From contig JAGVMN010000006.1 in NCBI GenBank assembly GCA_020053795.1, forward strand, positions 1,192 through 65,191: a stretch of 64,000 bases of DNA. The letters are read 5' to 3'. This DNA comes from Bacteroidia bacterium (GTDB lineage: Bacteria > Bacteroidota > Bacteroidia > NS11-12g > UBA9320). A program made the position numbers and the translations under genes. Below are positions 7,375 through 62,140 of the stretch, piece after piece. The notes under the pieces are model-generated. The model had not been told where the DNA came from and ran no database searches. It saw only the letters and a program-made list of their open reading frames with translations. The stretch's first letter is position 1, and every line of letters starts with the position of its first letter.

Positions 7375-7450
7375 CAGTAACACAATTATACAGGTAGCCC
7401 CTGTCCTAACAAATTTCTTGTCGTCGTGTTAAATTCCTGACAAACCAGAA

Positions 7451-13958: not shown

Positions 13959-14256
13959 AAGCTGCGAATATAATTCAAGTGGTAGTACGAAAGAGTGAAA
14001 GAATGAACGAAGTGTATCTTTGGCAAAGGCGTTGCTTCTTTATCACTAACCATTCACTCCTTTCGGCCTTAACTCTGGCTGCTTTCCGGTCATAAAGCCA
14101 GAGCCGAATCCTGTGAATTATGCACAGCAATTTGCCAGGTAACTCCTTTGATTGTTTATTTAACAGAAAAAAGACCTGTTCTGAATTGGGACCAATTTGA
14201 CAATTTTTTTCTCGTGACATCCTTTTTTATGCATATTTGAATTTTATATCAGTTTT

Positions 14257-16100: not shown

Positions 16101-16889
16101 CTAATTAGCTTTCACCCTTGAGGCTATCTGGTAATAAAGCCATGGCCAAATCCTATGAACGTAATGTAAGATCAATTCACCCCTGGCAATCATCACTTCA
16201 CGTTTTCTTTTTTCAATAGCCCGAATAATTTTACGGGCACAAACATCTGCCGGAATCCCGTTTTTTTGCCCTTCGTCATAAATGCCGTGTTTGCCGCCAT
16301 CTTTGCTCAAAGCGTTGACAGAGATAGGGGTGTTTATCCGTCCCGGACTGACAATGGTGACCCCGATTCCTGTTCCGTTCAATTCCAGTCCGAGGGTTTC
16401 GAAAAATCCTTGTAAAGCATGCTTTGCCGCTGTGTAACCGGATCTATTCGGAAAGCCAAACTTGCCCGACATGCTGCTGATAACGGCAATCTGTCCATGT
16501 CCGGCTTTCAGCATGTGCGGCAATACACTTTTGGTAAGTGCCACCGAGCCGAAAAAATTCACTTCCATCAATTTCCTGAATACGGCCATACTAGTTTCTA
16601 TGGCCAAAGATCTTTGGCTGATACCACCGTTGTTGATAAGTAAATCAATTTGCCCATAAGCAGAAATGACCTTATCAACTGCGTACTCAAAATCTTCCTG
16701 TTTTTCCAGATCCAGCGGAATGACCATACACTCCGAGCCGTTCCTTTCGCAAAGAGTTTTCAAGACTTTCAGCACTTCAGCCCTACGAGAGGAAAGAACG
16801 AGCCTATTGCCGTTTCCTGCCAGTTCCAGTGCCAAAGCCTCACCTATTCCGGAACTGGCTCCTGTGATCCATATCGTCTTATTTTCCAT
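16101..16889 (-). CDS. short-chain dehydrogenase/reductase (SDR)
   Basis: Cofactor motif TGASSGIGEA, NNGG motif, and catalytic S...YTAAKHAL. Confidence 0.85.
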   Translation of the reverse strand: MENKTIWITGASSGIGEALALELAGNGNRLVLSSRRAEVLKVLKTLCERNGSECMVIPLDLEKQEDFEYAVDKVISAYGQIDLLINNGGISQRSLAIETSMAVFRKLMEVNFFGSVALTKSVLPHMLKAGHGQIAVISSMSGKFGFPNRSGYTAAKHALQGFFETLGLELNGTGIGVTIVSPGRINTPISVNALSKDGGKHGIYDEGQKNGIPADVCARKIIRAIEKRKREVMIARGELILHYVHRIWPWLYYQIASRVKAN

Positions 16890-43718: not shown

Positions 43719-44263
43719 GATTCTTCGGTTTTTTCAATTTGATGTATCATTTCCTTTAGCTTCACCTTGGCCATGTGGTATTGGCTTTTGGATGTAGATT
43801 CACTTATGGCTAATTTTTCTCCAATTTCCCTATGTGTAAAACCTTCGACAGCATAAAGATTAAAAACCAGTTGATAACCTGCCGGTAAAGTTTTCACCAT
43901 GTCAATTAGTTCTTTGTATTGGATATGGTTAAGCACCGAATCATCCGCAACCCTCGACTCAACAACCAAATCAGGTTCATAACTGAATCTCAGAGCATCT
44001 TTTTTTTTGATGTGGTTAATTGCGTTGTTTACCATAATTCTTCTCATCCAACCTTCAAAACTTCCAGTTCCGGAATAAGAATCAATTTTTGTTAAAATGA
44101 TCACAAATCCATCGTGCATCATATCTTCAGCCTCCTGCATCCCGGATGCGTAACGATAGCATAGGCCCAGAAATCTTGGTGCATAAGTGTCGTATAGGGC
44201 TTTTTGATACTTTGGCCTGCCTTTTTTACAACCCTCAATAATTTCACTGAGGTTTACAGACAT
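43691..44263 (-). CDS. RNA polymerase ECF-type sigma-70 factor
   Basis: 190 aa. Region 2 (EAEDMMHDGFVIIL...W..RIMVNNAINHIKK) and the region 4 HTH (FTHREIGEKLAISESTSKSQYHMAKVKL) are both present. Confidence 0.85.
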   Translation of the reverse strand: MSVNLSEIIEGCKKGRPKYQKALYDTYAPRFLGLCYRYASGMQEAEDMMHDGFVIILTKIDSYSGTGSFEGWMRRIMVNNAINHIKKKDALRFSYEPDLVVESRVADDSVLNHIQYKELIDMVKTLPAGYQLVFNLYAVEGFTHREIGEKLAISESTSKSQYHMAKVKLKEMIHQIEKTEESCKAVLKTS

Positions 44264-47400: not shown

Positions 47401-48086
47401 GGCGGATCTGGAATAGACCCTGCCTGGGTAGGCAGACCACCTTGATAGGGCAATGCCATTCGATACACCAATAAATCACCATCAGGGTCGTAGGCAGAGT
47501 TAAGGATATTCGTTGTGTCTTTCACACACATATATGGTGACGGTACACCCGAGAATGCAGGGGAACTATTTTTGATATTGGTTGGGGGGATGTTGCAAGT
47601 AAATGTTTGGCCTTGGTAAGGTTGTCCGTTTGGACCATTGGAATTAAGGTTGTTCTGAATATTACGACAACAACGAACAAAAGTAAGACGATAGCCATAA
47701 GAACTTGAAGGCAAGTCAATCTCCCTTTCATAAAATCCTTGCTCAATACAAACATTTTTAGCGTAATAATCACAAGTAATACTTCCGGGTGGATCAACTT
47801 TTCGCCTGACTAATAATTTGAAGGTTAAGGTCTGATTTATTGATTTCTTCGCGTTGTTGTTATAAACTCCTATCTTAATTTCATTGTCAAACTCCACTGT
47901 GCTTTGTAAGCAATCTCTGAAAATGTTCAGAGTTACTTTGTAACGATACATACCGTTTGAAGTAGTTGTCAGATATTGATAGCTCATATAACCACCAACC
48001 AAATGGGTTGCCGAGGCCTCAGAAGCAATAAATAGAACATACCCCAGAAGGAAGTTTCTAAAAGTTATGTTAACGATTTTTCTCAA
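44469..48086 (-). CDS. giant adhesin with gliding-motility/CHU_C (T9SS type B) C-terminal sorting domain
   Basis: The N-terminal ATHLVGGYMSYQYL motif is typical of this family. Multiple Ig-like modules follow (..G..Y.W.V.GG........I.V.WG..G.G.V.V.E....GC..). The C-terminus is FIPNAFTPNADNVNEGF...FNRWGEKVYST...WDGLY. Confidence 0.85.
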   Translation of the reverse strand: MRKIVNITFRNFLLGYVLFIASEASATHLVGGYMSYQYLTTTSNGMYRYKVTLNIFRDCLQSTVEFDNEIKIGVYNNNAKKSINQTLTFKLLVRRKVDPPGSITCDYYAKNVCIEQGFYEREIDLPSSSYGYRLTFVRCCRNIQNNLNSNGPNGQPYQGQTFTCNIPPTNIKNSSPAFSGVPSPYMCVKDTTNILNSAYDPDGDLLVYRMALPYQGGLPTQAGSIPDPPANLKLPIDPVIYNSGFNEYSPFGMGGVATVDPNNGLTQLYSQNVGSYVIAIEVTEYRNGIELSRIRLDLQILVLQCEPNNKPKISGSSYNYEVEAGAPLCFDITGSDIDNDNVTLKGKGDIFTGANGFIPPLASLPTTTGTGTTVSQFCWQPSCSQFSSKPYLFTAEVWDNGCPPKFENKNFSILVKPFIGADGIFGPDRLCNYSKNNLYIAQRASAGSTFEWIVTGGVIQGSAKGSSVFVMWNQSGAGSIAVTEISRFGCRGQTSNKVITILSSPPKPVISGLDTVCELESGVQYSVFNNAGSSYWWSANGGTSGGSSNNLFKVDWGFKGTGIVKAVETGSNGCPSDTAIYFVDIRKPYPAISGNPSVCPNIKGIIYKTTYTSGSIYIWQVTGGTQVGGGNTNQISVNWGDAGVGGVFVTETDRFGCMSDLVTLNVFIDYTLAGSKPMGKTSVCEFDQGVPYTVLKTEGSVHYWIINGGNQASGDSSNLISVNWGANGSGRVGVQERSFDSVNNRVCSSPFIYLNVTINPLPVANTIIGPVDFCQSEDSMSYTLNGFAGSTYIWTLAGKNDTIFGQGTKTIKLVMNKPGTYLLSVIEITKDSCPGKLLDTIIYVRPKPTTTGIFGDFVICHPNILKIPYSVSGFQNSTFNWSVTNGNILYGRGTDSILIDFDDVVDAYIKMVEISEFNCKGDTLELPVYINKLIIEMKVVSVGYPDNYMVVQWQTPGNPAISYPFELDRRPEGTLVWNKIASIDGSLRSYIDKPLNTDKNPFEYQVRGTDLCGNLRNTQTHTNILLSGSISEVDLSLTINFTPYLGWQNGVDYYEIYRRVNNESDFTYQSNYDPSTRIRFENNVSVFTECYRVKAYEIEGNKAVSWSNEICYNYEPNVFIPNAFTPNADNVNEGFGVVSIAVNQFEMNIFNRWGEKVYSTLDLYSKWDGLYLDKPAQQDVYIYTVRFTDYRNRPYYKSGTVHLMR

Positions 48087-50580: not shown

Positions 50581-50654
50581 GGCGGGGTAGCTCAGATGGT
50601 TAGAGCGTAGGATTCATAACCCTAAGGTCGGCAGTTCGATTCTGCTCCCCGCTA
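50581..50654 (+). tRNA. tRNA with CAT anticodon (Met, or Ile2 if lysidine-modified); no encoded CCA
   Basis: Cloverleaf: acceptor GGCGGGG/CCCCGCT (G1-U72 wobble), D arm GCTC-AGATGGTTA-GAGC, anticodon loop TTCATAA, T arm GGCAG-TTCGATT-CTGCT. Distinguishing Met from Ile2 needs tRNAscan or identity rules. Confidence 0.88.
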
Positions 50655-50821
50655 CTTCTGCAAAGGTTAATCAATAAAGACTTTCATGAATTTTTGTATT
50701 TCAAATGTTCTGTTTAGATACAACATAGGTACAACAAATAGAACTTTTCCTGTTTCATGTTTGAATCTTTCACTCCTGTGGAAACAATCACGGTAATGCT
50801 TTTTATGGATAAAAACCTTCT

Positions 50822-51215
50822 TTAACAAAACCTACTCTTTGCTTGAGAGGAAGAATCACATGATGAAATGGGGTCTGTTGCCGACACAGTATAATGTAAC
50901 ACTACAGATTTTTCGTCGGCCGGCCCGGGTTGTATCACCTGCACATTGTATGATGTGTAGTTGGTTATCCAGCCCATATCGTAGCTGTTCACGGTCATGT
51001 TTCGCTGATAAAGTACGGCATCGTCCTGTATCAATCCAATTCTGCTGCTGCCATAGAGGTGCAGTTCGTTCAGCTTCAGCCGCTCTATCACATCGTTATT
51101 GCCCAGTTCTTCGCAGGTCATGGTGTAGGTGGCCATCAGGTTGCCACCCGCGTCGCGAATATACCATGTTGTTGTGACAGTTGATGATACGGTAACCTTT
51201 TCTTGATCCGTTGTC
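50822..51215 (-). pseudogene. Rhs/YD-repeat remnant (5'- and 3'-truncated)
   Basis: It encodes ..TWYIRDAGGNL-MATYTMTCEELGNNDVIERLKLNELHLYGSSRIGLIQDDAVLYQRNMTVNSYD.., about 90% identical to the start of the 472-aa toxin ORF. After ..QPGPADEKS it runs into 27 unrelated codons and a stop. The frame opens just after a TAA, so there is no upstream Rhs shell. Confidence 0.7.
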
Positions 51216-51269
51216 CGGAACCATTATTGGCAATGGTCAAGGTTGGAGAAAAACACCAACCTTTGGGCA
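50907..51269. repeat. direct repeat copy 1 (363 bp)
   Basis: It aligns without indels to 58417-58779. I count 27 mismatches (~93% identity) and the last 31 nt are identical. Confidence 0.9.
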
Positions 51270-51922
51270 GAGAAATACCCATTATTGTTCTACAACCTGA
51301 GCAATTGAATTTCCTGATCAATAACGAGCCATTTCAGAATTCTTTACCCGGGTTTTTAAAAAGGACTAAAGACTTTTTTGTTTTTGGTTGCACCGTTGGT
51401 TTGCGGGTGAGTGATATGAAAGCTTTGAAAAAAAGCAATCTTGAGATCGCAGATAATAACTGGTACTTGAAAGTTCACTCAAAAAAGACCGGTAAATTCA
51501 CCAAAATCAAATTGCCCGAATATGCTATTGATATCATAAAGAGAAACCAAAACAGGAGCACTTTTTTGTTTCCTCCAAAGAGTAATGTAAATTTGAACAA
51601 GCATATTCAAACAATCATGGCAATGGCCGGTTGGGACCATACATTTACCAAAACAAGAATGCGTAGAGACAAACCGGTAGAAATATACAAGAATGCTCAA
51701 AAAAGAGAGCATTACCGCTTTTGCGATTTGGTGACTACTCACACTATGCGAAGAACGGCTATTACCACGTTATTGAGTCTGGGAATTGACGAACCTTCTG
51801 TGCGAAAAATAAGCGGACATGCACCAGGGAGTGTTGAGTTTTATAAGTACGTGAAATTCCACCAACAAAACCTCGATGAAAAGACCGATCTGGCATTCGA
51901 AAAATTGACCAAAATGAGCTAA
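51233..51922 (+). CDS. compact tyrosine site-specific recombinase (catalytic domain only, ~229 aa)
   Basis: The catalytic residues occur in order: R (GLRVSD), HxxR (HTMRRTAIT), GH (ISGHAP), Y (VEFYKYV). The track ORF begins at TTG 51203; the first ATG is at 51233. There is no N-terminal SAM/arm-binding domain, so it is either FimB/FimE-sized or a 5'-truncated integrase. Confidence 0.75.
   Translation: MVKVGEKHQPLGREIPIIVLQPEQLNFLINNEPFQNSLPGFLKRTKDFFVFGCTVGLRVSDMKALKKSNLEIADNNWYLKVHSKKTGKFTKIKLPEYAIDIIKRNQNRSTFLFPPKSNVNLNKHIQTIMAMAGWDHTFTKTRMRRDKPVEIYKNAQKREHYRFCDLVTTHTMRRTAITTLLSLGIDEPSVRKISGHAPGSVEFYKYVKFHQQNLDEKTDLAFEKLTKMS
51239..51263. other. 8-9-8 inverted repeat AAGGTTGG-agaaaaaca-CCAACCTT, candidate tyrosine-recombinase core site (copy 1)
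   Basis: The arms are perfect 8-bp inverted repeats with a 9-nt asymmetric spacer. The site lies 6 nt from the point where the two repeat copies diverge and covers codons 3-11 of the recombinase ORF. Confidence 0.35.
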
Positions 51923-51933
51923 AAAAGTAAAAA

Positions 51934-52980
51934 ATGGTCAATTTAAGACATAGCTCAAATTCCTATCATCAGTGCATAAACCTGAGTTCGGATTACTATC
52001 CTTTCGGGATGAACATGCCAGGCCGATCTTATTCAGGCTCTGCCTATAAATACGGGTTTAACGGACAGGAGCAGGATGACGAAGTTTCGGGGACTGGGAA
52101 TAGCTACACGGCTGAATTTTGGCAGTATGATAGTAGGTTGGGGAGAAGATTTAATACGGATCCTGTAGTAATAGCTTATTTAAGCCCCTACAATTGCTTC
52201 CAAAATAGCCCTATTGAGTATAGTGACCCCGATGGCGATTTTGTCGTTGCCGGAATAGTTGGATTTTTTAAAGGTGCATTTAGAAAGAGTAGTAAACGTG
52301 AGTTTGAAGGCGGTTGGTTTAAAGAGGCCAGGAACGAGAGTGTTCGGCATATGGCAAATTCTATTAATATTTATGCTGGAATATTTGCAGTGGATAGGAG
52401 AAGAGGATTTTTTCATGGCGTCTATCAGATATTGTCAAGGTTGACATGGGAATTGCCTCAAACAATCTATTCCCTTATATACGCTCAAAGCTTCAACATA
52501 TTCGGACATGTTCATAAAGTAGGTTATCAGAGTGGAGCCACCTACCTGTATGCTCCTGATTCACGAGGTCCTTATATGGTTGGAAATGTAATTATTGGAC
52601 AAGATGCAACTGGTGAGGTTGGAGACCTGACTCAGCAGTATTGGCAAGGAAAACAGCGAAACAGCAGGATTCTTGGACCCCTTTATTTTATACACGAAAT
52701 GTTAGAAGGACGGGAGTGGCTTCTTAATCGCATTGGTCCAATCCGTGAATGGATTGATAAGTCAGGTTTTATTGTTTCTGGTAAGGTTCAAGGTTTTAGG
52801 TATAAAGGAGCAAGAGTTCAGGCAGGTCTTTTTACATATAACGACATTGCAAGAATGTCAAGAGCAAGGTATCATATTATTATTCATAGGCGTATTAATC
52901 AGGACGGTACGGTTTATGGTTATTACCGAGATGCACTGTTCTTAAAAAACCGTAGGATAATGAGAGTTGGGCACAAATAG
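51934..52980 (+). CDS. orphan Rhs C-terminal fragment: end of Rhs core + unassigned ~245-aa toxin domain
   Basis: A stop lies 1 codon upstream of the ATG. The core end DYYPFGMNMPGRSYSGSAYKYGFNGQEQDDEVSGTGNSYTAEFWQYDSRLGRRFNTDP...YSDPDGDF (DPxG-type demarcation) is followed by unrelated sequence. Confidence 0.75.
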   Translation: MVNLRHSSNSYHQCINLSSDYYPFGMNMPGRSYSGSAYKYGFNGQEQDDEVSGTGNSYTAEFWQYDSRLGRRFNTDPVVIAYLSPYNCFQNSPIEYSDPDGDFVVAGIVGFFKGAFRKSSKREFEGGWFKEARNESVRHMANSINIYAGIFAVDRRRGFFHGVYQILSRLTWELPQTIYSLIYAQSFNIFGHVHKVGYQSGATYLYAPDSRGPYMVGNVIIGQDATGEVGDLTQQYWQGKQRNSRILGPLYFIHEMLEGREWLLNRIGPIREWIDKSGFIVSGKVQGFRYKGARVQAGLFTYNDIARMSRARYHIIIHRRINQDGTVYGYYRDALFLKNRRIMRVGHK

Positions 52981-52988
52981 CAATAAAC

Positions 52989-53711
52989 ATGAGAAAATGC
53001 GAACTAAGCATATTGACCTTGTTATTGGTTGTTGGGTGCCATCCAATTAACTCAGGAATATTTGTTACAAACCAACTCACTCAACCAATTGTAATAGAGT
53101 ATCATGCGTTTAACGGCAAATATTTTGTGGGTATTGACAAGGAATATTCCAGAAAGGATAAAGATGCCGGTTTGCTTTACAATCCATTGCTCTGCAATAG
53201 ATGTGAAATAATTCACAAAGGAGATTCAAAAGTAATCGTAATCCTGCCCCCAAAGGATAGTGTTATTATTTCTGGTTCAAAAACAAGTTACCATTATCCA
53301 GGAGATGTTTTAGTGATAGGTGAAATGAAAGTATATTCTTTAGAATCAGACCAGAACTATCCTGCGGGATTTGAAATTTTGAATCACCTTGAACCTTTTG
53401 GAAACAATAAAATTATTTCTATTGATAGTTCCAATTTTAAAACAATTTCCATTCCAGACAGTTTTAATTACCCTTGTATGAGAATTAATAAAGGCATTCT
53501 GGACACTAATAACTCTTATTTCACAGATGTAACCTTCTGTAGACTTGAAAATGACAGCATACGATTCACAGAATATGCAAGTTGGATAAGGATGAGAACG
53601 AATGTTAATTATAGAGTTTATCATGAGTATTATTATCAGATGCAAAGAGATGCTTGGGTAGAAATTTTCCCACATGAGCCAAGAAAAATTATGGTTCCTA
53701 AAAGACCTTAG
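52989..53711 (+). CDS. putative cognate immunity protein (lipoprotein)
   Basis: It starts 8 nt after the toxin stop and has a signal peptide with a Cys (LTLLLVVGCHP). The sequence is AT-rich and I recognised no family. The role is inferred from position. Confidence 0.5.
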   Translation: MRKCELSILTLLLVVGCHPINSGIFVTNQLTQPIVIEYHAFNGKYFVGIDKEYSRKDKDAGLLYNPLLCNRCEIIHKGDSKVIVILPPKDSVIISGSKTSYHYPGDVLVIGEMKVYSLESDQNYPAGFEILNHLEPFGNNKIISIDSSNFKTISIPDSFNYPCMRINKGILDTNNSYFTDVTFCRLENDSIRFTEYASWIRMRTNVNYRVYHEYYYQMQRDAWVEIFPHEPRKIMVPKRP

Positions 53712-53864
53712 CTCAAGCCATTCTGCTTAATTTACATGTACAAGTGTAATTCGCTCCGCCAAGCGAACAATTCTCAAGACAGCTGGGGGCAGTACTTTTC
53801 TATCAAAACAGTATCACATTCCTTAAATAATTTTCCTATCTTGCCTCCTTAAATTCTCATCGGT

Positions 53865-56519
53865 ATGAACTCTAAACTTACACTGATTATCGGTCTCTCA
53901 TTTTTTCTATTTATTCCATTTTCTGAGGCCCAAACCAATATAAACGGCGGCAATGTATCCGGCACTTGGACCAAGGCAGGAAGCCCGTACCTGGTGAAAG
54001 GAGACATTACCATACCCAATGACTCTACGCTGAACATTGGTGTGGGGGTAATTGTAGATTTTAAAGGAACCTATACCCTCAGAGTACAAGGCCGGATATT
54101 GGCCATTGGCAAAAGTGGGGATTCAGTGGTTTTTACTGCCGCTGCCTCCAACTGGCGAGGCATCCGTTTTGAGCGAACACCAAAGACCAATGACACCTCA
54201 CGGTTTGAGTACTGCATTATAGAAAAAAGCAATGTTGAGGGATTATCTGATACACTAAAACGTGGTGGCGGATTGTATATACAGGAATTTTCGAAAGTGG
54301 TGATAGAGAATAGTCAGATAAGAAACAACAAGGCCACTCATGGGGCGGGCATCTACCTTACTGGGAAATTAAACGAATTAAGTAGACTGAGGATTAGTAA
54401 CTCACAAATTATAAGGAATGCTTCTTACCAAGGTGGTGGTGGTTTTTTTGTTAATTATTATGGTCAACTGGACATATACAACTGTGATATTTCGAATAAT
54501 GCTTGTACTGACTATAAAGGAGGGGGAGTTTACCTTTCATACAACTCTGTTCTCAATATGGACAATTGTCGCATTGAAAAGAATATACTTATGAATCAAG
54601 TAGGAGGAGATGGAGCAGGACTTGATATTGAATATTACTCCGAAGGGAAAATCAGGAATTGTTTGATAAGAGAAAATTCAGCAGGAGGCTCAGGTGCTGT
54701 AAATATTGAAGAATACTGTCATCTAAGTTTTGAAAATTGCTTAATTTCAGGCAATCAAAGCACATTTAAGAGTAAAGCACCTAAAGGAACTGGCGTTGTC
54801 ATTTACAAGTTCTGCGATGTGATATTCCATAATTGTGACATTGTAAATAACACCAAAAATGCCTTTCCATCCACTTCAGTGGCAGTTTCTATATCTACTG
54901 GTTGCAATCCTATTTTTACCAACTGTAGAATCATGAACAACACAGGAATCGGAATCACCTTCAATGATTTCTCAACTACTAAAATGATAAATTGTATTCT
55001 AGCCAATAATGGGGGTGCAGATGGTATCAATTCTCAAACTGATTTTTATAACTGTGTTTTCGCCAACAATGTCGAAACTGAAATTGACGGAAGTGGTTTT
55101 ATTATTAGCAGTAATTGCAATTTCTATAATTGTATTTTCACCGGAAGCAGAGATAAAAACAATCAAAAGACTCAGATTGCAATTTACTCTTTGAGTGCCA
55201 AACCCAACTTCTACAATTGCATCATTGATGGAGATAGTGCAGGGTTTATCGGTATTGGGGCTCATGGGAACTTTAAAGGGGTTTACATCAACAATATGGA
55301 CGTTGACCCACAGTTTGTAAATCCCACTGTCGGGGCAGGGCCGTCCTTTGACGCCACCAAAGCAGACTGGAGCCTTAAAAATACCTGCATTGGTGTTTCC
55401 CCGGCTCTCAACAGGGGTACCATACAATTCGCTGGAGGGTTTAAGTTACCTGCAACTGATTTTGCCGGAAGTCCCAGAGTTTCGGCGGATACCGTTGATA
55501 TTGGGCCTTACGAAATTCAATACCCTAAAGACCGCATCAGCAAAAAGCCAAATGTCGGGGCTTTCACCGGTTTATGCGAAGCAAGTGACACGACATTGCG
55601 ACTGAATATGCAAGCCTCCAATCCTGTTTGGGAATGGCAACGAAGCACCAATCAGGGCAACAACTGGACATTTTATAGTGTTTCATCGGATTTGTCTCTA
55701 AAAGGAGTGAAAGCCCAGGACAGCAATCTGTACTATCGGGCTCTTATTACAGCAGATTGCGGATTGAAAGACACCTTTCAAACGGTCTTGAAAGTGTTCC
55801 TTCCTGCACCGCTTGATCTGGGTGCTGATACAGCATCTTGTTCAGGAAAAACTGTAACCCTGCAAAACAAGTATGCCCCTGTTTTAGGAAATGTTTATTT
55901 GTGGAGTAACAGCCAGCCTTCACAAAGCATACAGGTAACACCACCACAAGCCACCAAATATTCCCTGAAAATCACAACGCCGGATGGCTGTATCTCCCTC
56001 GACAGCTTATGGGTAAAGGTTGGCAATAACCCTGTTGTTTTCATAGGTAATGACACGTCTATTTATCTGACAGAATCATTGTTGTTAAAAGCTCCTATTG
56101 GACACCCCCGCTATCTTTGGAGCGACAACAGCAACAAGAATACCCTCACCCTGAATGGTGCTTCCCTAGGAAAAGGGCAATACAATGTTTGGGTATTGGT
56201 GCATGACAGCATCGGTTGCAGTGCCTCGGACACGCTGAACCTGACTGTGAAAAACGTAGGAATCACATACCTCGGACTTCCGGCATTTATTTCCATCTAT
56301 CCCAATCCGGCAAAGGAAAAGCTGATGATTGATCTTTCGGGTTATCAGGGTTCCGAATCGCTTGCGATCACTCTGCGAGACCTCAACGGGTCGGCGTTGC
56401 AAACCTGGGAGTTGACGAATTCTGCGGAAATTGATCTTTCTTCAATTTCAAAAGGGTTGTACCTTTTTGAAGTTAAGACTTCAGAGGGGAGTGGTTTTAG
56501 CAGGTTGGTGGTGGAGTAA
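53865..56519 (+). CDS. right-handed parallel beta-helix repeat protein with Ig-like modules and T9SS type A C-terminal sorting domain
   Basis: Signal peptide MNSKLTLIIGLSFFLFIPFSEAQ. About 12 PbH1-like turns are present (NSQIRNNKATHGAGIY, NCDISNNACTDYKGGGVY, NCLIRENSAGGSGAV, NCRIMNNTGIGI, NCILANNGGADGI ...). The C-terminal tail is IYPNPAKEKLMIDL...LRDLNGSAL...KGLYLFEVKT. Confidence 0.8.
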   Translation: MNSKLTLIIGLSFFLFIPFSEAQTNINGGNVSGTWTKAGSPYLVKGDITIPNDSTLNIGVGVIVDFKGTYTLRVQGRILAIGKSGDSVVFTAAASNWRGIRFERTPKTNDTSRFEYCIIEKSNVEGLSDTLKRGGGLYIQEFSKVVIENSQIRNNKATHGAGIYLTGKLNELSRLRISNSQIIRNASYQGGGGFFVNYYGQLDIYNCDISNNACTDYKGGGVYLSYNSVLNMDNCRIEKNILMNQVGGDGAGLDIEYYSEGKIRNCLIRENSAGGSGAVNIEEYCHLSFENCLISGNQSTFKSKAPKGTGVVIYKFCDVIFHNCDIVNNTKNAFPSTSVAVSISTGCNPIFTNCRIMNNTGIGITFNDFSTTKMINCILANNGGADGINSQTDFYNCVFANNVETEIDGSGFIISSNCNFYNCIFTGSRDKNNQKTQIAIYSLSAKPNFYNCIIDGDSAGFIGIGAHGNFKGVYINNMDVDPQFVNPTVGAGPSFDATKADWSLKNTCIGVSPALNRGTIQFAGGFKLPATDFAGSPRVSADTVDIGPYEIQYPKDRISKKPNVGAFTGLCEASDTTLRLNMQASNPVWEWQRSTNQGNNWTFYSVSSDLSLKGVKAQDSNLYYRALITADCGLKDTFQTVLKVFLPAPLDLGADTASCSGKTVTLQNKYAPVLGNVYLWSNSQPSQSIQVTPPQATKYSLKITTPDGCISLDSLWVKVGNNPVVFIGNDTSIYLTESLLLKAPIGHPRYLWSDNSNKNTLTLNGASLGKGQYNVWVLVHDSIGCSASDTLNLTVKNVGITYLGLPAFISIYPNPAKEKLMIDLSGYQGSESLAITLRDLNGSALQTWELTNSAEIDLSSISKGLYLFEVKTSEGSGFSRLVVE

Positions 56520-56584
56520 AACTCATACTTGATGTATTCCTTTTTACACATTTAAGGGAGTTACAAGGACAACAAAAAGGTTGG

Positions 56585-57244
56585 CTAAAATCGAAAAACA
56601 CCTAGTTTGTTTCTCAGTTTTAGATCATTATCAAGTAACCAATTAAATCTTTCTTTCCAATAATCGTTGACCAATAATTTATATTTGTTTAATAATTCAA
56701 ACTCGTCTGATTTCGCTTGATCTTGAACTATCAAATCAAGAATTATGATTGAACATTCAATCCAAGAATCTGGGTTAAATTTGAAAATATATTCTTTTAA
56801 TTTCTGAAGGGAATTCAGTGATTCAACTACTCTCAAGAGTTCTACAACATCAGCCATGAGTTTCGTCAGGGTTTTATTATCTAGCCCAATATCACTATTC
56901 AACCCATAATAGAAACTCCTTTTTAACATCCTCTGACCGTCAATTAAACAAATCCGATTATTCAGTGAAATTTTCTCTTTGACCTTCTGACTATACAATT
57001 TAGAAGAAACCTCCGTAATTATTCCAAAGGAAAGCGAAAACTGAAGATCTATGTCAGAGGAGCTTTTATAATTTATTTCAAGATCAGAATATAAATAAAC
57101 CTCATTGACCCTCTTAAATAAGCCTTTGCCTTTTTTTGAAAAGCCAAGTTCTGTTAGAAAAGCTGAATATCTTTTCTTGACTTTCAAGAATTCGATTTTA
57201 AGTTCATTCATTGAATTCTGGGATTTTTTTTCAATAAAGTTCAT
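56585..57244 (-). CDS. putative cognate immunity protein (cytoplasmic)
   Basis: ATG 57244 overlaps the toxin stop by 14 nt (the track start GTG 57289 is also possible). It has no signal peptide and is very AT-rich: the two 60-nt lines I counted are 18% and 32% GC. Confidence 0.5.
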   Translation of the reverse strand: MNFIEKKSQNSMNELKIEFLKVKKRYSAFLTELGFSKKGKGLFKRVNEVYLYSDLEINYKSSSDIDLQFSLSFGIITEVSSKLYSQKVKEKISLNNRICLIDGQRMLKRSFYYGLNSDIGLDNKTLTKLMADVVELLRVVESLNSLQKLKEYIFKFNPDSWIECSIIILDLIVQDQAKSDEFELLNKYKLLVNDYWKERFNWLLDNDLKLRNKLGVFRF

Positions 57245-58649
57245 CTGATAAATCCCATTTATTCTGTTGCCAATCTTCCCAATCTTCACGGAACTGTTCC
57301 TTGCTTTCCTCTGTCATTTCCCTTGTTTCAATGAGCTTTTCAGTTGTAAAACTACCTACACTTATTGACTGTCCTGGTAACAACAATTGCTTGGGGTCTG
57401 AGATACCATTAATATCCATTAGTTCTTGAACAGTCATACTATGTTTTGCTGCAATTGACCACAAGCAGTCACCTTGTTTTATATTATATTTCAGGGAATA
57501 TTGTGAATACTCAGTCGTATAAGTGATATCATATTTATATTCTCCAATTTGAACATTTTTGACCACACCTACGTTAGTAACTACAGGTCTATAGAGCCAA
57601 ATCTCAACTTCCCAATTTCTTACCTCTGGATAGTATTTTTGTGCTTCTTGAAGATATTCGGCAGCATCTTTTAATCCATTTTTCAACCCATTTCTTGTTG
57701 CTGATTTCCATTCACCAATTTTGCCCCATTTGTTCTCTGGTATTATTCGTGAGCCATCAGGTCTTAATTTACTTCCTCTTCCAATTGATTGATTAAATTT
57801 ATCAAATTGGCCCTCTGATTCGGCAATTTTATCTACAATTTTATGGTTATCTTTTCCTGATTGAGTAAGTCGTTTAAAATTATCAGATTTAGAGAGTTCT
57901 TTAACCCAACTAACTCTCTTTAATCCTGTTCGGACTGTTCGAACTGTAATTTTAAGAACTGTCTCTCCGGTTGCTATGACGGGATTTGAAGATACTAATA
58001 TAGGAACCATTCTTGGCAGGAATTCTGACCCTTCTAAATCAATTCCAGAAATCGGGCAATTTTCAGCAAACGCAAATGGCGAACTATGAGGATAATTTTT
58101 CCCTATTGGGTCAACGGATAAGAAGCGTCCTAACCTTGGGTCATACATTCTGAAAGTAAAGTTGTAGCTATTTCCTTCCCCTTTTATTTCATTATCTTTT
58201 TCAACTCCTCCAAACCCGTACCTATAGCCAGTGCTGGTATAAGAGCGGGCTTGCATGGTCATCCCAAAAGGATAGTAATCCGTGAAGCTCATATACTCTA
58301 CTTCGAAGTAGTCTATGGTGCCGCTGTTGTTATGGCTTATCTTGCGGTCGGTGATCACCGCCAGCACATTGCCGAGGTGGTTGCTGAGTTCGTATCGCTT
58401 ATACCCTCTGAACTGTGATTTTTCGTCGGCAGGCCCAAGTTGTATCACCTGCACATTGTATTCGGTGTAACTGGTTATCCAACCCTGATCATAGCTGTTC
58501 ACGGTCATGTTTCGCTGGTAGAGCACGGCATCATCCTGTATCAACCCTATTCTGCTGCTGCCATAGAGGTGCAGTTCGTTCAGATTCAGCCGCTCTATCA
58601 CATCGTTATTGCCCAGTTCTTCGCAGGTCATGGTGTAGGTGGCCATCAC
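57231..58649 (-). CDS. orphan Rhs fragment: ~125 aa of YD-repeat + core end + C-terminal toxin region with PD-(D/E)xK-like motif and a LysM domain
   Basis: GTG/ATG start inside a YD repeat. The core end is DYYPFGMTMQARSYTSTGYRYGFGGVEKDNEIKGEGNSYNFTFRMYDPRLGRFLSVDP...GIDLEGSE. Then comes ..ESEGQ..KLRPDGSRIIPENKWGKIGEWKS.. (E..PD..ExK spacing). LysM-like segment: YNIKQGDCLWSIAAKHSMTVQELMDINGISDPKQLLLPGQSISV. Confidence 0.75.
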   Translation of the reverse strand: MMATYTMTCEELGNNDVIERLNLNELHLYGSSRIGLIQDDAVLYQRNMTVNSYDQGWITSYTEYNVQVIQLGPADEKSQFRGYKRYELSNHLGNVLAVITDRKISHNNSGTIDYFEVEYMSFTDYYPFGMTMQARSYTSTGYRYGFGGVEKDNEIKGEGNSYNFTFRMYDPRLGRFLSVDPIGKNYPHSSPFAFAENCPISGIDLEGSEFLPRMVPILVSSNPVIATGETVLKITVRTVRTGLKRVSWVKELSKSDNFKRLTQSGKDNHKIVDKIAESEGQFDKFNQSIGRGSKLRPDGSRIIPENKWGKIGEWKSATRNGLKNGLKDAAEYLQEAQKYYPEVRNWEVEIWLYRPVVTNVGVVKNVQIGEYKYDITYTTEYSQYSLKYNIKQGDCLWSIAAKHSMTVQELMDINGISDPKQLLLPGQSISVGSFTTEKLIETREMTEESKEQFREDWEDWQQNKWDLSDELY

Positions 58650-58779
58650 ATTGCCGCCCGCGTCGCGAATATACCATGTTGATGTGACAGTTGATGATAC
58701 GGTAACCTTTTCTTGATCCGATGTCAGGAACCATTATTGGTAATGGTTAAGGTTGGAGAAAAACACCAACCTTTGGGCA
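58417..58779. repeat. direct repeat copy 2 (363 bp)
   Basis: See copy 1; the offset is exactly 7,510 nt. It contains the recombinase ATG plus 12 codons, then reads KCW-stop (stub 58743-58790). Confidence 0.9.
58749..58773. other. 8-9-8 inverted repeat AAGGTTGG-agaaaaaca-CCAACCTT, candidate recombinase core site (copy 2)
   Basis: Identical to the site at 51239-51263, and sequence identity with copy 1 ends 6 nt further on. Confidence 0.35.
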
Positions 58780-58808: not shown

Positions 58809-59276
58809 CTATCCTTTTAAACCAAGGCTTTCGAAAAAATTATTCAATCTACTGCTTAGTATAATTAGTTTTTCTCTTGGTACATTCCAAATCCAAAATC
58901 CAAATATTGTCGCACAAATCCCTAAAACAAGTGCAAGCCATTTATTCAACCAATCAGGATCATCATTCAAAATAATTGTTCTTTCTATATTTTTGGGATC
59001 GAACCAAAAAGCGACTTTATCCATTGGCTTAAAGGAGACCTCATTTAGTAACTTATTAAAAGTATAGGTACTGTCTTTATAGCTGCATTCTATTACATGA
59101 AGATTGGAGTTAGGAGCATCTGATACAGGTGTGCTTTCAACCTTAATAACTATACCTTGTACCAATACTCCTTTACTTTTAATCATTATTCGATTACTTA
59201 AGGTTATAATGAAAACACCAAACATAAAGAATCCAAAAGGAAATAATATTAATGATACTACTTTTTGAATATTCAT
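58809..59276 (-). CDS. putative immunity protein, two-TM membrane protein (DUF3592-like topology)
   Basis: ATGA start/stop overlap with the upstream toxin gene. An N-terminal TM helix (VVSLILFPFGFFMFGVFIITL), a beta-rich middle and a second TM helix (WLALVLGICATIFGFWIW) make up the protein. Confidence 0.55.
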   Translation of the reverse strand: MNIQKVVSLILFPFGFFMFGVFIITLSNRIMIKSKGVLVQGIVIKVESTPVSDAPNSNLHVIECSYKDSTYTFNKLLNEVSFKPMDKVAFWFDPKNIERTIILNDDPDWLNKWLALVLGICATIFGFWIWNVPREKLIILSSRLNNFFESLGLKG

Positions 59277-60412
59277 TGTCCAACTGTCGCTTGACCAGTG
59301 GTAAATCTCAATGTGTATTTTTTGGCTAACTGTGCATCCACAGATGATTTACCTGATCTCATAAGACCTTTTGAAAGGTCAAGGCTTGCATCCAAAATTG
59401 GACCAACTCTATATTGCGTACTTTGCGATGATAAATTCTGACTAAAAGTTCCACCCAATCCCATTCCTCCATTGAGAAATTTTGTACTTGATTCAAAATA
59501 GTTAGAATTCTCTCGAGCACCACTCAATTCGGTTTGGGGAAGTGCTTTTGAATTAAGAAAAGCATAGGCTTGACCTGTTAAACCTACTTTATACCAATCA
59601 TTCACTGAGAATGTAACACCACCATCTTTCCCTTTTGCAGACCCTACTAAACTAAAATCAATTTGAAAATTAATACCACCCGAATGCTCATCATTACCAA
59701 ATAACTCGAGTTTTGCTGATAGTGCAAAAATCCCCAATTGACCTTTACCTTGAACTCCTAATCCACCGCTTCCTGCTTCTATACCAACTCTATAAAGTCT
59801 GTTATAAGCATCATCCATTTTTTGACCGATAATATTCAACCATGGCATTGGTTCCCATACATCGGCCTTGTACTTATAATTTTTTACTTTATGATCATAA
59901 TAAGTCATATTCCCTTCAACACGTTTCTTGTCAAACACCAAATCATGTTTAATGTATTTGTGTAGAGTTCCGTAACCTCTGTCTTTGGGTGGATCAAAGG
60001 TTTTAATAATTGTTTTATGCTTCCCACCAACATTGTCAAAATAATGTGTCACTTCTTTATCTTCTAATCCGTCAAGATCAATTGCCCAAATAGGTTTGTT
60101 TCCGGCAAATTGATATGGAGTAAACCACGGATAATCCATTGTAATAGGGTCTTCACTTAAAAACTTACCTGTTCTCGGATTGTAAATCCTAAAACCATAA
60201 TCCTGATTTCCAGTTTCCTCATCCGTCTCTTTTCCGTTGAAAGAATACCTATAGCCACTGCTGGAATAAGATCGTGCCTGGATGGTCATCCCAAAGGGAT
60301 AGCCGGAAAAGGTCATATTTTGAGAGGGTAAATTCACCTTATCAAAGGTAATTTTGTTTTTAACATTTGCCAGTATACCAGATAAACATCTGGGCAATCT
60401 GTACTTCGACAT
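59273..60412 (-). CDS. orphan Rhs C-terminal fragment: core end + unassigned Gly-rich beta-type toxin domain
   Basis: Core end GYPFGMTIQARSYSSSGYRYSFNGKETDEETGNQDYGFRIYNPRTGKFLSEDP...AIDLDGLE, followed by ~290 aa of unrelated sequence ending in Gly/Ser-rich alternating segments. Confidence 0.75.
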   Translation of the reverse strand: MSKYRLPRCLSGILANVKNKITFDKVNLPSQNMTFSGYPFGMTIQARSYSSSGYRYSFNGKETDEETGNQDYGFRIYNPRTGKFLSEDPITMDYPWFTPYQFAGNKPIWAIDLDGLEDKEVTHYFDNVGGKHKTIIKTFDPPKDRGYGTLHKYIKHDLVFDKKRVEGNMTYYDHKVKNYKYKADVWEPMPWLNIIGQKMDDAYNRLYRVGIEAGSGGLGVQGKGQLGIFALSAKLELFGNDEHSGGINFQIDFSLVGSAKGKDGGVTFSVNDWYKVGLTGQAYAFLNSKALPQTELSGARENSNYFESSTKFLNGGMGLGGTFSQNLSSQSTQYRVGPILDASLDLSKGLMRSGKSSVDAQLAKKYTLRFTTGQATVGQ

Positions 60413-60537: not shown

Positions 60538-61014
60538 TCACTCGATTTTCCCTGAATCGTCAAACGCATCTAATATCCTCTGCTTAATTAGATGGATAAA
60601 AAGCGGAGAAATTTTAATACAGCCGGTAATATATCTTAGAAGCAAACTGCTGAATTCAGATGTTTCTAATATCCCGAAATTATAAAATTCTGTTACGATT
60701 TTAAAAAGTAGAATTATCAGGTATACTAAGGCAAAGAACAAATACAGGTCTAATGAAATAGAATCGGTCACCATAATTAAGAATAATCCAACAACAGCCA
60801 TCAAAAAAATGGTTGGATGAATCCACCAATTATCAGAGTCAATTAATGATACTAACAAGACGTAGAATGAAAGTAGTGAAAACGTTATTAAGATTCCACC
60901 GATCTCAAAGGAACCAAATAAAAATGAAAAAAATGTAAACAACAATATATATGCATAGCGATTTTTATTAAGCACCATTTGCAAAATTTTAACCCTTATA
61001 TTCTTACTTGTCAT
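60538..61014 (-). CDS. putative immunity protein, polytopic (4-5 TM) membrane protein
   Basis: It has an 11-nt overlap with the upstream toxin stop (ATGACAAGTAA) and is almost entirely hydrophobic helices. Confidence 0.55.
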   Translation of the reverse strand: MTSKNIRVKILQMVLNKNRYAYILLFTFFSFLFGSFEIGGILITFSLLSFYVLLVSLIDSDNWWIHPTIFLMAVVGLFLIMVTDSISLDLYLFFALVYLIILLFKIVTEFYNFGILETSEFSSLLLRYITGCIKISPLFIHLIKQRILDAFDDSGKIE

Positions 61015-62140
61015 AATACTCTATTCCGATGAATCTATTAATTGAACCAGAAGCCATTATTGCTCCTCCAACCCCAAACTGAATTCCAATTGATTTTGCA
61101 AGTCGTGTGGTGTAATTTGGATTGGTGTTGGTTATCCTCGACAAACCAATTGCTGTTATTCTATACTCTGTATTTTGGTCACTAATTTTATCGTTAGTCA
61201 ACATTGGAGCTAAATTATAAGTATGATCAACCGAACCTCCTATAAATACAAAATCAGTACTGGCTCCGTGGGTAATTTGAAGCTGATTTAACCCATTTTC
61301 CGTCCCATCAACAATTATTCCAGACCTTTCTATTATTGTTGGTTTCGTTGAATTAAATTCTTTAATTTTTATTTTAGAATAATAATCAACAGAGCCAAGG
61401 TTTGCATCAGCTGATATACCAAAAGCTCCCTTAATATGTCCTCCAAATCTAAGGCCAAGTGTTACTTTGCTTTCATTTCTCGAAACCCATCTCGCTTTAT
61501 CTAAAAACTGCTTTCTTGTGACAATTGTAGAAAAAAGGTTAACTTGTTTTTTTATTTCACTGCCTTCTTCTTTTACATCAATTGTTTCAGAGTATCCTTC
61601 TGTTTTTGTTCCTTCAACATCAGCATATTCTCTGCCCTTGCTATTTGTTTTTATCGTAATATCAACTTCAAATCCTTGCTCCTGAAGTTTCCATGCTTCT
61701 TTATTTGCGGTATGCTTATAAGAATCACCTTTCACCCATCTTGCAAACCTTTTAAAAGCATACCCGAGATTTCTTTTATCAGGTGGCTCAAGACCAAGTG
61801 GATCAATGAAGATCAATGGATTATTATACATCGAAGCATAAGGGCTTTCCCAAGGTTTAAAAATTAAATCGTGACTAAACCATCTACCAATCCTTACATC
61901 AAGTTGCCTGTAGTCAGTTGTGTAAGAATTTCCGTCTCCACTTACTTCATCATCTTTGGCCATTCCATTATATCCAAACCTATAGCCACTGCTGGTATAA
62001 GATCGGGCCTGGATGGTCATCCCAAAGGGATAATTTGATAAACTACTATTTACGGGAGAATGCTTCACAAAGCGAAGATATGTCATCTTTGACCATTTTG
62101 CTTTGAAAAAGCAAATCCGAGAGCTATCGGATTCAACCAT
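61004..62140 (-). CDS. orphan Rhs C-terminal fragment: core end + unassigned Gly-rich beta-type toxin domain
   Basis: The frame opens only 16 codons upstream of the ATG (after a TAG). Core end NYPFGMTIQARSYTSSGYRFGYNGMAKDDEVSGDGNSYTTDYRQLDVRIGRWFSHD...FIDPLGLE, followed by ~265 aa of unrelated sequence. Confidence 0.75.
   Translation of the reverse strand: MVESDSSRICFFKAKWSKMTYLRFVKHSPVNSSLSNYPFGMTIQARSYTSSGYRFGYNGMAKDDEVSGDGNSYTTDYRQLDVRIGRWFSHDLIFKPWESPYASMYNNPLIFIDPLGLEPPDKRNLGYAFKRFARWVKGDSYKHTANKEAWKLQEQGFEVDITIKTNSKGREYADVEGTKTEGYSETIDVKEEGSEIKKQVNLFSTIVTRKQFLDKARWVSRNESKVTLGLRFGGHIKGAFGISADANLGSVDYYSKIKIKEFNSTKPTIIERSGIIVDGTENGLNQLQITHGASTDFVFIGGSVDHTYNLAPMLTNDKISDQNTEYRITAIGLSRITNTNPNYTTRLAKSIGIQFGVGGAIMASGSINRFIGIEYYDK

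What the first reader, a model, noticed from the sequence alone, without database searches (positions are those of the whole stretch)
50907..58779. 363-bp direct repeats (~93% identical, offset exactly 7,510 nt) bracket recombinase + toxin cargo
nt 50907-51269 and 58417-58779 align base for base with no indel. I count 27 mismatches, 18 of them in the left ~150 nt, and the last 31 nt are identical. On the minus strand both copies encode the same 5'-truncated start of an Rhs fragment. In both, the frame opens right after a TAA, then reads WFLTSDQEKVTVSSTVTSTWYIRDAGGN-MATYTMTCEELGNNDVIERL.... The left copy then dies after 27 unrelated codons next to the tRNA, while the right copy continues into the 472-aa toxin. 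Because the repeats are direct, recombination between them would release a 7,510-bp circle. That circle would carry the recombinase, two toxin/immunity pairs and the beta-helix gene, and would leave a single hybrid repeat. The ~7% divergence argues for two homologous but independent copies (chromosomal target versus element-borne) rather than a recent duplication.
Basis: partly seen in the sequence, partly recalled or inferred. Interest (0 to 1): 0.8.

Follow-up and report, generated by a model that had tools for sequence, protein, structure and literature searches.

The report
Duplicated Rhs fragment beside dead recombinase
Two diverged copies of a toxin-gene fragment flank a 7-kb block of toxin and antidote genes, but the block's recombinase gene is broken, so this looks like a recombination scar in a decayed toxin-swapping locus rather than a live mobile element; the locus type itself, a recombinase tied to swappable Rhs toxin ends, appears to be undescribed.

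Summary
In detail: 50907-51269 and 58417-58779 are 363-nt direct repeats with 27 mismatches, no indel and sharp edges. Both are the same 5'-truncated Rhs core fragment on the minus strand. The mobile-element reading is only partly supported. The bracketed "recombinase" is the C-terminal 216 aa of a ~355-aa family. It is cut at the repeat edge (51269|51270), and no N-terminal part exists elsewhere in the window. The tRNA-Met 3' end is not duplicated. The repeats diverged under purifying selection (dN/dS 0.20), so they are two alleles of a coding sequence. In 79 related loci this recombinase family sits next to an Rhs toxin cassette in 48 of 78. In 16 of those loci a long Rhs gene lies nearby, and it is always convergent with that cassette. 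Within a locus, homology between the gene and the cassette starts abruptly at the codons for (D)YYPFGM, an imperfect palindrome. The window has four such sites (51997+, 58274-, 60301-, 62032-), none at the repeat edges. Best reading: this is a decayed recombinase-linked Rhs toxin-switching locus. The 363-nt pair is a scar of homologous insertion or duplication, capable only of RecA-type deletion. No close relative of the source genome was found, so no empty site could be tested.

The parts
50581..50655 (+). tRNA-Met (CAT), the left neighbour of the locus
   Evidence: ARAGORN and Rfam. Its 3' 30 nt occur only once in the window.
50656..50906 (.). Unique 251-nt spacer. On the minus strand it holds the 27 unrelated codons plus stop (50822-50906) that terminate the left Rhs fragment. 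Junction J1 lies at 50906|50907.
   Evidence: No similarity to anything in the window or in 84 loci. Translation.
50907..51269 (-). Left repeat (L): a 46-nt leader plus 105 codons of an Rhs core fragment, truncated at both ends
51219..51263 (.). Twin stem-loop in the leader of L. It includes AAGGTTGG-N9-CCAACCTT at 51239-51263.
   Evidence: The second stem is weakened in L by the 2 leader mismatches.
51270..51922 (+). 5'-truncated tyrosine recombinase gene: the catalytic domain only, with about 138 N-terminal residues missing. The open frame extends back into L (TTG 51203, ATG 51233).
   Evidence: Pfam PF00589. Relatives are about 355 aa. The alignment starts at residue 139 of P0122. No other recombinase-like hit in the window.
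51934..52980 (+). Rhs C-terminal toxin cassette (348 aa) beginning 12 nt after the recombinase stop. The YYPFGM site lies at about 51991-52016.
   Evidence: The same recombinase-then-cassette-then-immunity order is seen in L003-L005.
52989..53711 (+). Candidate immunity gene (240 aa) of the plus-strand cassette
   Evidence: Assigned by position only; no Pfam hit.
53865..56519 (+). Beta-helix protein with a type IX secretion (T9SS) C-terminal sorting domain (884 aa), lying between the convergent cassettes
   Evidence: Pfam PF13229 and PF18962.
56585..57289 (-). Candidate immunity gene (234 aa) of the minus-strand cassette CT1
   Evidence: Assigned by position only; no Pfam hit.
57231..58416 (-). 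Remainder of the right Rhs fragment. It holds the last part of the Rhs core, the YYPFGM site (about 58255-58280), the DPIG...DLEG region, and a toxin end with LysM and a weak Tox-REase-9 match.
58417..58779 (-). Right repeat (R): the same leader plus 105 codons, continuous with the 472-aa ORF
58729..58773 (.). Twin stem-loop in the leader of R. It lies 36 nt downstream of the stop of the 155-aa gene at 58809-59276.
58809..60412 (-). Cassette 2: Rhs-CT (59273-60412, site at about 60301) plus a candidate immunity gene (58809-59276)
60538..62140 (-). Cassette 3: Rhs-CT (61004-62140, site at about 62032) plus a candidate membrane immunity gene (60538-61014)

Best explanation
The two 363-nt copies are diverged alleles of one 5'-truncated piece of an Rhs toxin gene body. 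They sit in a decayed member of a locus type in which a dedicated Xer-like tyrosine recombinase lies next to Rhs C-terminal toxin/immunity cassettes.

Inferred from relatives: in intact relatives the recombinase-proximal cassette faces a long Rhs gene. The two share a short inverted site embedded in the codons for (D)YYPFGM. Recombination there would swap the toxin end and its immunity gene, as in a shufflon, with integron-like stacking of cassettes.

Shown here: the window keeps four such sites, one inverted relative to three, but its recombinase has lost its N-terminal ~138 residues.

Inferred: the repeat pair is not a pair of att sites. It is the scar of a homologous-recombination event. 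The most likely event is Campbell-type insertion of a circularised, ~7% diverged piece of such a module. That piece would have been closed by an illegitimate join between the hairpin-bearing start of the Rhs fragment and the middle of the recombinase gene. An equivalent tandem duplication is also possible. A deletion at 50906|50907, either before or after, then left only 363 nt of the other copy. The only rearrangement the repeats can still support is rare RecA-dependent loss of the 7,510-bp interval.
For: The repeats are real and unique to these two places.

The recombinase is truncated at the repeat edge. Family members are about 355 aa, the alignment starts at P0122 residue 139 = nt 51272, and no N-terminal part exists elsewhere in the window.

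L and R diverged as coding sequence: dN/dS is 0.20 and the 25 coding differences fall 5:5:15 by codon position (P = 2e-4 and 6e-3). They still share a non-coding leader and a stop codon. Mismatches cluster in the left 150 nt (18 of 27, P = 0.007), which suggests a mosaic.

Family context, from 79 loci. A same-strand Rhs-CT lies within 400 nt after the recombinase in 31 of 67 loci. An opposite-strand Rhs-CT lies within 400 nt before it in 13 of 70. One or the other is present in 48 of 78. All 17 long Rhs-body hits, in 16 loci, are convergent with the proximal cassette and none is co-directional (examples).

Inverted repeats between cassette and main gene are 32-124 nt long, 84-97% identical, and centred on the YYPFGM codons. 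Within-locus identity is 0.35 upstream of the site, 0.96 in the 21-nt core, then 0.84 and 0.72. The between-locus control gives 0.33, 0.73, 0.47 and 0.36. The site consensus has dyad symmetry.

The window sites are listed. L017 shows the proposed intermediate: two tandem modules, a 478-nt 92.5% direct repeat in their Rhs genes, and a second recombinase truncated where it meets the first module's Rhs gene.
Against: No rearranged or empty allele was seen, because no close relative of this genome is in the collections searched. The best match is 49% aa for the repeat peptide and 68% for a flank gene.

Inversion at the YYPFGM site is inferred from architecture only. No pair of assemblies in opposite states was found.

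The order of the two illegitimate junctions cannot be resolved.

The shared repeat edge lies 6 nt from a perfect 8-9-8 palindrome. This could mean a site-specific break rather than an accidental one.

The window contains no full-length Rhs gene, so what the fragments once belonged to is unknown.
Confidence: 0.6

Rival explanations
1. The 7.5-kb block is an integrated mobile element, the 363-nt repeats are its attL and attR, and the encoded recombinase excises it as a circle.
For: Direct repeats bracket a recombinase-like ORF and cargo next to a tRNA gene. The right 31 nt of the repeats are identical and carry a perfect palindrome of recombinase-site geometry. In L025 a module with the same gene order is flanked by 145-nt direct repeats at 96-100% identity.
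Against: The recombinase lacks its N-terminal ~138 residues, and the break is at the repeat edge. There is no tRNA 3' duplication, and tRNA linkage is absent across the family. The repeats are protein-coding sequence under purifying selection, not a short identical core. The family's conserved site is elsewhere, at the YYPFGM codons. The palindrome was not found in the 87 loci held at the time or in metagenomes.
Confidence: 0.08
2. The segment 51270-58779 underwent an in-place tandem duplication by unequal exchange at the hairpin. Most of the first copy was then deleted. The 7% divergence was introduced later by gene conversion from other Rhs paralogues in the genome.
For: A single new junction (58779|51270) explains both the shared repeat edge and the truncated recombinase. 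Hairpins are known hot spots for illegitimate joins (my own knowledge). Mismatches are clustered like a conversion tract. High-identity Rhs patches next to the site occur between different Rhs genes in L017.
Against: This model needs an extra conversion step to explain dS 0.23 with dN/dS 0.20. No paralogue donor can be examined, since only 64 kb is available. The two recombinases in L017's tandem modules are only 73-77% identical, which favours separate origins there.
Confidence: 0.2
3. The leader palindrome is a second, undescribed recombination or cleavage site that marks the end of a transferable Rhs-switch module. The repeats arose by site-specific capture of such a module at a resident copy of the same site.
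For: The repeat edge is 6 nt from an 8-9-8 palindrome. The YYPFGM site consensus can be read with the same geometry, as two 8-nt arms and a 9-nt spacer. The twin hairpins are strongly structured. Modules recur in tandem or flanked by direct repeats (L017, L025).
Against: The motif has only two copies, both inside the repeats. None was found at other cassette ends, in the 87 loci held at the time or in metagenomes. Its sequence is unrelated to the YYPFGM site.
Confidence: 0.1

Closest known systems
Rhs orphan toxin/immunity arrays and main-orphan homologous recombination (Poole et al. 2011, PMC3150448; Koskiniemi et al. 2014, PMC3967940)
   Same: The locus has 5'-truncated Rhs C-terminal fragments without start codons, each followed by an immunity gene. 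Direct repeats of core sequence could delete the interval by homologous recombination. The toxin/immunity parts have low GC.
   Different: In related loci the cassettes start at one fixed codon position (YYPFGM) instead of variable lengths of core. They face the main gene in inverted orientation, and a dedicated recombinase gene sits beside them. The window has no full-length Rhs gene.
rAID-1 recombinase-associated acquired interbacterial defence clusters of Bacteroidales (Ross et al., bioRxiv 10.1101/471110; PMC12247911), and polyimmunity loci next to XerC/D (Zhang et al. 2012, PMC3482391)
   Same: A Xer-like tyrosine recombinase lies at the 5' end of a co-directional array of horizontally acquired toxin-defence genes with repeated junction sequences and low GC. 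Arrays of up to five cassettes occur (L037, L039).
   Different: Here each unit keeps a toxin end as well as immunity. The repeated junction is inside coding sequence. A convergent full-length Rhs gene shares the site. The hosts are environmental Bacteroidota such as Chitinophagaceae, not gut Bacteroidales. Sequence relatedness to the rAID-1 recombinase could not be tested.
Shufflons and similar site-specific inversion switches: R64 Rci/pilV, type I hsdS switches, Bacteroides fragilis SusC/D shufflons, Mycoplasma vsa (from my own knowledge)
   Same: A tyrosine recombinase sits beside several inverted copies of a short site inside coding sequence. One constant gene body faces alternative silent 3' segments.
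   Different: The payload is an Rhs toxin end with its immunity gene. Inversion has not been observed. In the window the recombinase is truncated.
tRNA-adjacent integrative islands
   Same: A recombinase-like gene and low-GC cargo lie next to a tRNA gene, bracketed by direct repeats.
   Different: The repeats do not include the tRNA 3' end. They are 363 nt of diverged coding DNA. The recombinase is truncated, and its family is not tRNA-linked.

Membership tests
Integrative mobile element (genomic island with att repeats) | Intact integrase gene | tested here: not met
   Only residues ~139-354 of a ~355-aa family are encoded, and no N-terminal part exists elsewhere in the window.
Integrative mobile element (genomic island with att repeats) | Direct repeats that are the crossover sites; for tRNA islands, a duplicated tRNA 3' end | tested here: not met
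   The tRNA-Met 3' 30 nt are single-copy. The repeats are 363 nt of coding sequence at 92.6% identity with dN/dS 0.20.
Integrative mobile element (genomic island with att repeats) | Empty site or circular form in related genomes or reads | not testable with these tools
   No close relative was found in the collections searched, and no reads are available.
Rhs orphan toxin/immunity array | Rhs core C-terminal region (YD-type repeats, RYYDPxxGRF...DPxG) followed by a variable toxin end and a small downstream gene | tested here: met
   The fragments align to C-terminal parts of >2,300-aa Rhs ORFs and to 742 Rhs-annotated proteins. There are four cassettes, each with a downstream small ORF.
Rhs orphan toxin/immunity array | Linked full-length Rhs gene upstream | tested here: not met
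   No long Rhs body is present anywhere in the 64-kb window. It could lie beyond position 64000.
Shufflon-type site-specific inversion switch | Site-specific recombinase gene adjacent to the switch | tested here: inconclusive
   It is present and full-length in most relatives. In the window it is truncated.
Shufflon-type site-specific inversion switch | Two or more inverted copies of a short conserved site inside coding sequence, with homology starting at the site | tested here: met
   The window has sites at 51997(+) versus 58274, 60301 and 62032(-). For 13 within-locus inverted pairs, identity is 0.35 upstream of the site and 0.96 in the core. All 17 long Rhs-body hits are convergent with the proximal cassette.
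Shufflon-type site-specific inversion switch | Observed alternative orientations | tested here: inconclusive
   All-against-all comparison of the loci held at that point (L001-L087) found no pair differing by an inversion at the site. The only inversion seen involves an ISL3 segment in L003 versus L004.
rAID-1 | Recombinase at least 44% identical to BF9343_RS08045 | not testable with these tools
The family scores far below the XerC, XerD, XerA and integron-integrase cut-offs.
rAID-1 | Recombinase followed by two or more co-directional low-GC genes | tested here: met
   In the window the recombinase fragment is followed by the Rhs-CT and an immunity gene on the same strand, at GC 0.34-0.42. Longer co-directional arrays occur in L037 and L039.
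Integron | IntI-type integrase and attC hairpin at each cassette end | tested here: not met
   The integron integrase model scores 16 bits against a cut-off of 265. No structured element is present at the other cassette ends.

The most novel reading that the evidence does not exclude
This recombinase family is a dedicated Rhs toxin-switching enzyme. It recombines an imperfect palindrome written into the conserved (D)YYPFGM codons. By doing so it flips any of several silent toxin/immunity cassettes onto the 3' end of a convergent Rhs gene, and it builds the cassette arrays. Whole modules (recombinase, cassettes and the 3' part of the Rhs body) also move between genomes and stack in tandem. The window's 363-nt repeat pair is the scar of one such move, in a copy that has since lost its recombinase.
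Probability: 0.4. Interest if true: 0.75.

Novelty: new variant of a known kind. Interest (0 to 1): 0.5.

Why it matters
The repeat pair on its own is ordinary, because Rhs loci are classic rearrangement hot spots. What matters is the setting. Polymorphic toxins are thought to change their toxic ends by rare homologous recombination with silent cassettes. A dedicated recombinase acting at a site hidden in conserved Rhs codons would make toxin and immunity switching programmed and reversible. It would also link Rhs arrays mechanistically to shufflons and to the recombinase-associated immunity arrays of gut Bacteroidales. The idea is directly testable in a cultured carrier.

Tried and rejected
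1. Exact look-ups of the left-flank protein with two alternative starts: not on record.

2. A search for close relatives in order to find an empty site. The best protein match to the repeat peptide is 49%. The leader palindrome has no match in metagenomes. The best flank-gene relatives are 68% identical, with no tRNA-Met synteny and no homologue of the right-flank gene. This line was abandoned.

3. A tRNA-targeting island: rejected.

4. An apparent extension of recombinase homology into the left repeat. It proved to be a low-identity gapped extension from a single query.

5. A conserved 5' boundary for 'long' orphan fragments: rejected, because homologues start at variable positions.

6. The leader hairpins as a general cassette-end element, terminator or known RNA. 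There are no other copies, no structure at the other cassette ends, no terminator call and no Rfam match.

7. A weak 35-nt inverted match between 53665-53699 and the leader: judged to be at chance level.

8. A co-directional integration model, in which an element targets the Rhs site as attB: rejected, because all 17 long Rhs-body hits are convergent with the proximal cassette.

9. Direct evidence of inversion from multiple assemblies: none found.

10. Seven literature searches found no description of a recombinase-driven Rhs toxin inversion system.


Full report
OBSERVATION. The two segments 50907-51269 and 58417-58779 align without gaps over 363 nt at an offset of 7,510. There are 27 mismatches, 18 of them in the left 150 nt, and the last 31 nt are identical. 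Similarity falls to background immediately outside both ends. blastn gives E = 1e-152 and finds no third copy in the window or in 84 related loci. On the minus strand both copies carry a 46-nt non-coding leader, a TAA, and then 105 codons of Rhs core sequence. The left copy (L) ends after 27 unrelated codons, 170 nt from tRNA-Met. The right copy (R) continues into the 472-aa ORF.

GENE CONTENT. From left to right the region holds the following.
- tRNA-Met (+) and L (-).
- A recombinase-like ORF (+, PF00589).
- An Rhs C-terminal toxin cassette (+, 51934-52980) and a candidate immunity gene (+).
- An 884-aa beta-helix protein with a type IX secretion (T9SS) sorting domain (+).
- A candidate immunity gene (-) and the R-containing Rhs fragment (-), whose toxin end has LysM and a weak Tox-REase-9 match.
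- Two more Rhs-CT/immunity cassettes on the minus strand (59273-60412 with 58809-59276; 61004-62140 with 60538-61014).
The window contains no full-length Rhs gene. The toxin and immunity parts have GC of 0.32-0.36, against about 0.40 for the flanks.

THE RECOMBINASE IS A FRAGMENT. Its relatives are about 355 aa. The window ORF aligns to P0122 only from residue 139, which corresponds to nt 51272, two bases inside the edge of L, at 71% identity. No N-terminal part is encoded anywhere else in the window. One apparent extension into L was a low-identity gapped tail from a single query. The remaining frame is open and picks up an ATG at 51233 inside L, but the product would lack the whole N-terminal third. 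From established knowledge of tyrosine recombinases, a catalytic domain without the core-binding domain does not carry out recombination. The junction 51269|51270 is therefore an illegitimate join between the start of an Rhs fragment and the middle of a recombinase gene.

WHAT THE RECOMBINASE FAMILY DOES ELSEWHERE. A scan of species-representative genomes with an alignment of the family returned 79 loci, all annotated as Bacteroidota except two MAG contigs labelled Proteobacteria.
- A same-strand Rhs C-terminal cassette starts within 400 nt after the recombinase in 31 of 67 loci.
- An opposite-strand cassette ends within 400 nt before it in 13 of 70 loci.
- One or the other is present in 48 of 78 loci.
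- Arrays of up to five co-directional cassettes occur (L037, L039).
- Wherever a long Rhs body is in range, it is convergent with the recombinase-proximal cassette. This holds for all 17 hits in 16 loci, and none is co-directional. Examples include ORFs of 2,581+ and 2,317+ aa in L034 and L043.
- The inverted repeats between cassette and main gene are short (32-124 nt) and 84-97% identical. They are centred on the DNA encoding (D)YYPFGM.
- The cassettes carry stop codons or unrelated sequence right up to that motif. From the motif onward they are identical to the main gene of the same locus, and that downstream sequence differs between loci.
- For 13 within-locus inverted pairs, identity is 0.35 in the 30 nt upstream, 0.96 in the 21-nt core, then 0.84 and 0.72. 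Random between-locus pairs give 0.33, 0.73, 0.47 and 0.36.
- The consensus gATTAcTATCC.TTtGGgATGataATG has dyad symmetry about the central TTT.
- tRNA genes are not a feature of these loci.
- The family scores far below the XerA, XerC, XerD and integron-integrase cut-offs and has no PDB sequence match.
My inference is a site-specific toxin/immunity switch of the shufflon type, with integron-like cassette stacking. Inversion itself was not observed.

THE WINDOW IN THAT LIGHT. The window has the recombinase-then-cassette arrangement and four sites: 51997(+), 58274(-), 60301(-) and 62032(-). The homology of cassettes 2 and 3 to R begins at TATCC within the site. The inverted pair 51997/58274 shows the family pattern of identity, 0.27, 0.90, 0.75 and 0.67. 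The 363-nt repeats lie just outside this putative invertible segment and contain no site. With a truncated recombinase and no full-length Rhs gene, this copy of the system looks decayed.

ORIGIN OF THE REPEAT PAIR. The 25 coding differences fall 5:5:15 by codon position, with dN/dS 0.20 and dS 0.23. That is far from neutral decay (P = 2e-4), yet both copies share the same truncated start. Two routes explain this together with the truncated recombinase.
- Route (a): a linear piece of a ~7% diverged module, running from the start of the Rhs fragment to the middle of the recombinase gene, was circularised. It then integrated by a single homologous crossover in a resident copy. The repeat edge 51269 is the closure junction of that circle.
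- Route (b): an in-place tandem duplication used the same junction, followed by gene conversion from paralogues.
Either route also needs the second junction (50906|50907) as a deletion that occurred before or after. L017 shows the proposed intermediate. It has two tandem modules and a 478-nt 92.5% direct repeat in their Rhs genes, spaced 8,776 nt apart. Its second recombinase is truncated where the first module's Rhs gene ends. I favour route (a) but cannot separate the two. The repeats could still delete the interval by RecA-dependent recombination. The longest identical run is 64 nt, and 7% divergence should make that rare.

AN UNEXPLAINED DETAIL. The shared leader forms two adjacent perfect 8-bp stem-loops (z about -4). 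One of them is AAGGTTGG-N9-CCAACCTT, which ends 6 nt from the repeat edge. No other copy exists in the window, at other cassette ends, in the 87 loci held at the time or in metagenomes. It has no Rfam match. It may simply have favoured an illegitimate break. A second recombination site is not excluded.

WHAT COULD NOT BE DONE. No genome or metagenome in the collections searched is close to the source. The empty-site and strain comparisons are therefore open.

COMPARISON WITH WHAT IS KNOWN. The closest known systems are the following.
- Rhs orphan arrays, with homologous main-orphan recombination (PMC3150448, PMC3967940).
- The rAID-1 recombinase-associated immunity arrays of Bacteroidales (bioRxiv 10.1101/471110; PMC12247911), and polyimmunity loci next to XerC/D (PMC3482391).
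- Classical shufflons (from my own knowledge).
Seven full-text searches found no description of a recombinase-linked, inverted-site Rhs toxin switch.

VERDICT. The repeat pair is an ordinary kind of Rhs recombination scar. The locus type it sits in looks like an undescribed variant of recombinase-associated polymorphic-toxin arrays.

Noticed in passing
window 51991-52016(+), 58255-58280(-), about 60301(-), about 62032(-): There are four copies of a ~25-nt imperfect palindrome embedded in the (D/G/N)YYPFGM codons of the Rhs cassettes. One is inverted relative to the other three. In cassettes 2 and 3, homology to R begins at TATCC inside the site.
   Followed up: yes
window 51219-51263 and 58729-58773: Twin perfect 8-bp stem-loops lie in the shared leader of both repeats, 6 nt from the repeat edge. 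They are unique to these two places. Their function is unknown.
   Followed up: partly
window 51203-51922 (+): The truncated recombinase frame stays open back into the left repeat and gains an in-frame ATG at 51233. A catalytic-domain-only fusion protein could therefore still be made.
   Followed up: no
L017 2352-17002: Two tandem recombinase/cassette/Rhs modules are present. They share a 478-nt 92.5% direct repeat in their Rhs genes (7346-7823 and 16125-16599). The second recombinase is 5'-truncated next to the first module's Rhs gene. The two recombinases are only 73-77% identical.
   Followed up: partly
L025 4634-4777 and 12225-12353: A 145-nt direct repeat at 96-100% identity, derived from the 3' flank of a dihydrolipoyl-dehydrogenase-like gene, brackets a 7.6-kb module. 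The module runs from a 5'-truncated recombinase to a 5'-truncated Rhs fragment. This is the same bracket geometry as in the window, and it is unexplained.
   Followed up: partly
L002, L010, L012, L013, L021, L031, L046, L060, L061, L065, L080, L083, L084: In 13 of 83 loci the contig ends 81-242 nt after the recombinase gene, at or just past the YYPFGM site. This would be expected from repeat collapse or from mixed orientations in the sampled population.
   Followed up: no
L003 versus L004, about 13267-15238: Two assemblies of the same locus differ by inversion of a 1.97-kb segment that carries an ISL3 transposase gene and a sigma-70 region-4 gene, just downstream of the recombinase, Rhs-CT and immunity genes. 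It may be related to the insertion sequence or may be an assembly artefact at contig ends.
   Followed up: no
L085 10001-13167: A member of the same recombinase family (P0129, 60% identical to the window fragment) is followed by a 567-aa Laminin_G_3 protein and small ORFs instead of an Rhs cassette. The family is therefore not exclusively tied to Rhs.
   Followed up: no
window 3052-7374, 44469-48086, 53865-56519: There are several large proteins with type IX secretion (T9SS) sorting domains (CHU_C, Por_Secre_tail). An ECF sigma factor gene lies at 43691-44263, with a beta-barrel protein gene beside it. This is consistent with an environmental Bacteroidota host at 39% GC.
   Followed up: no
window 56585-57289 versus 57231-58649: The candidate immunity ORF, if started at its GTG, overlaps the 3' end of the 472-aa toxin ORF by 59 nt. 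The true start is probably further downstream.
   Followed up: no
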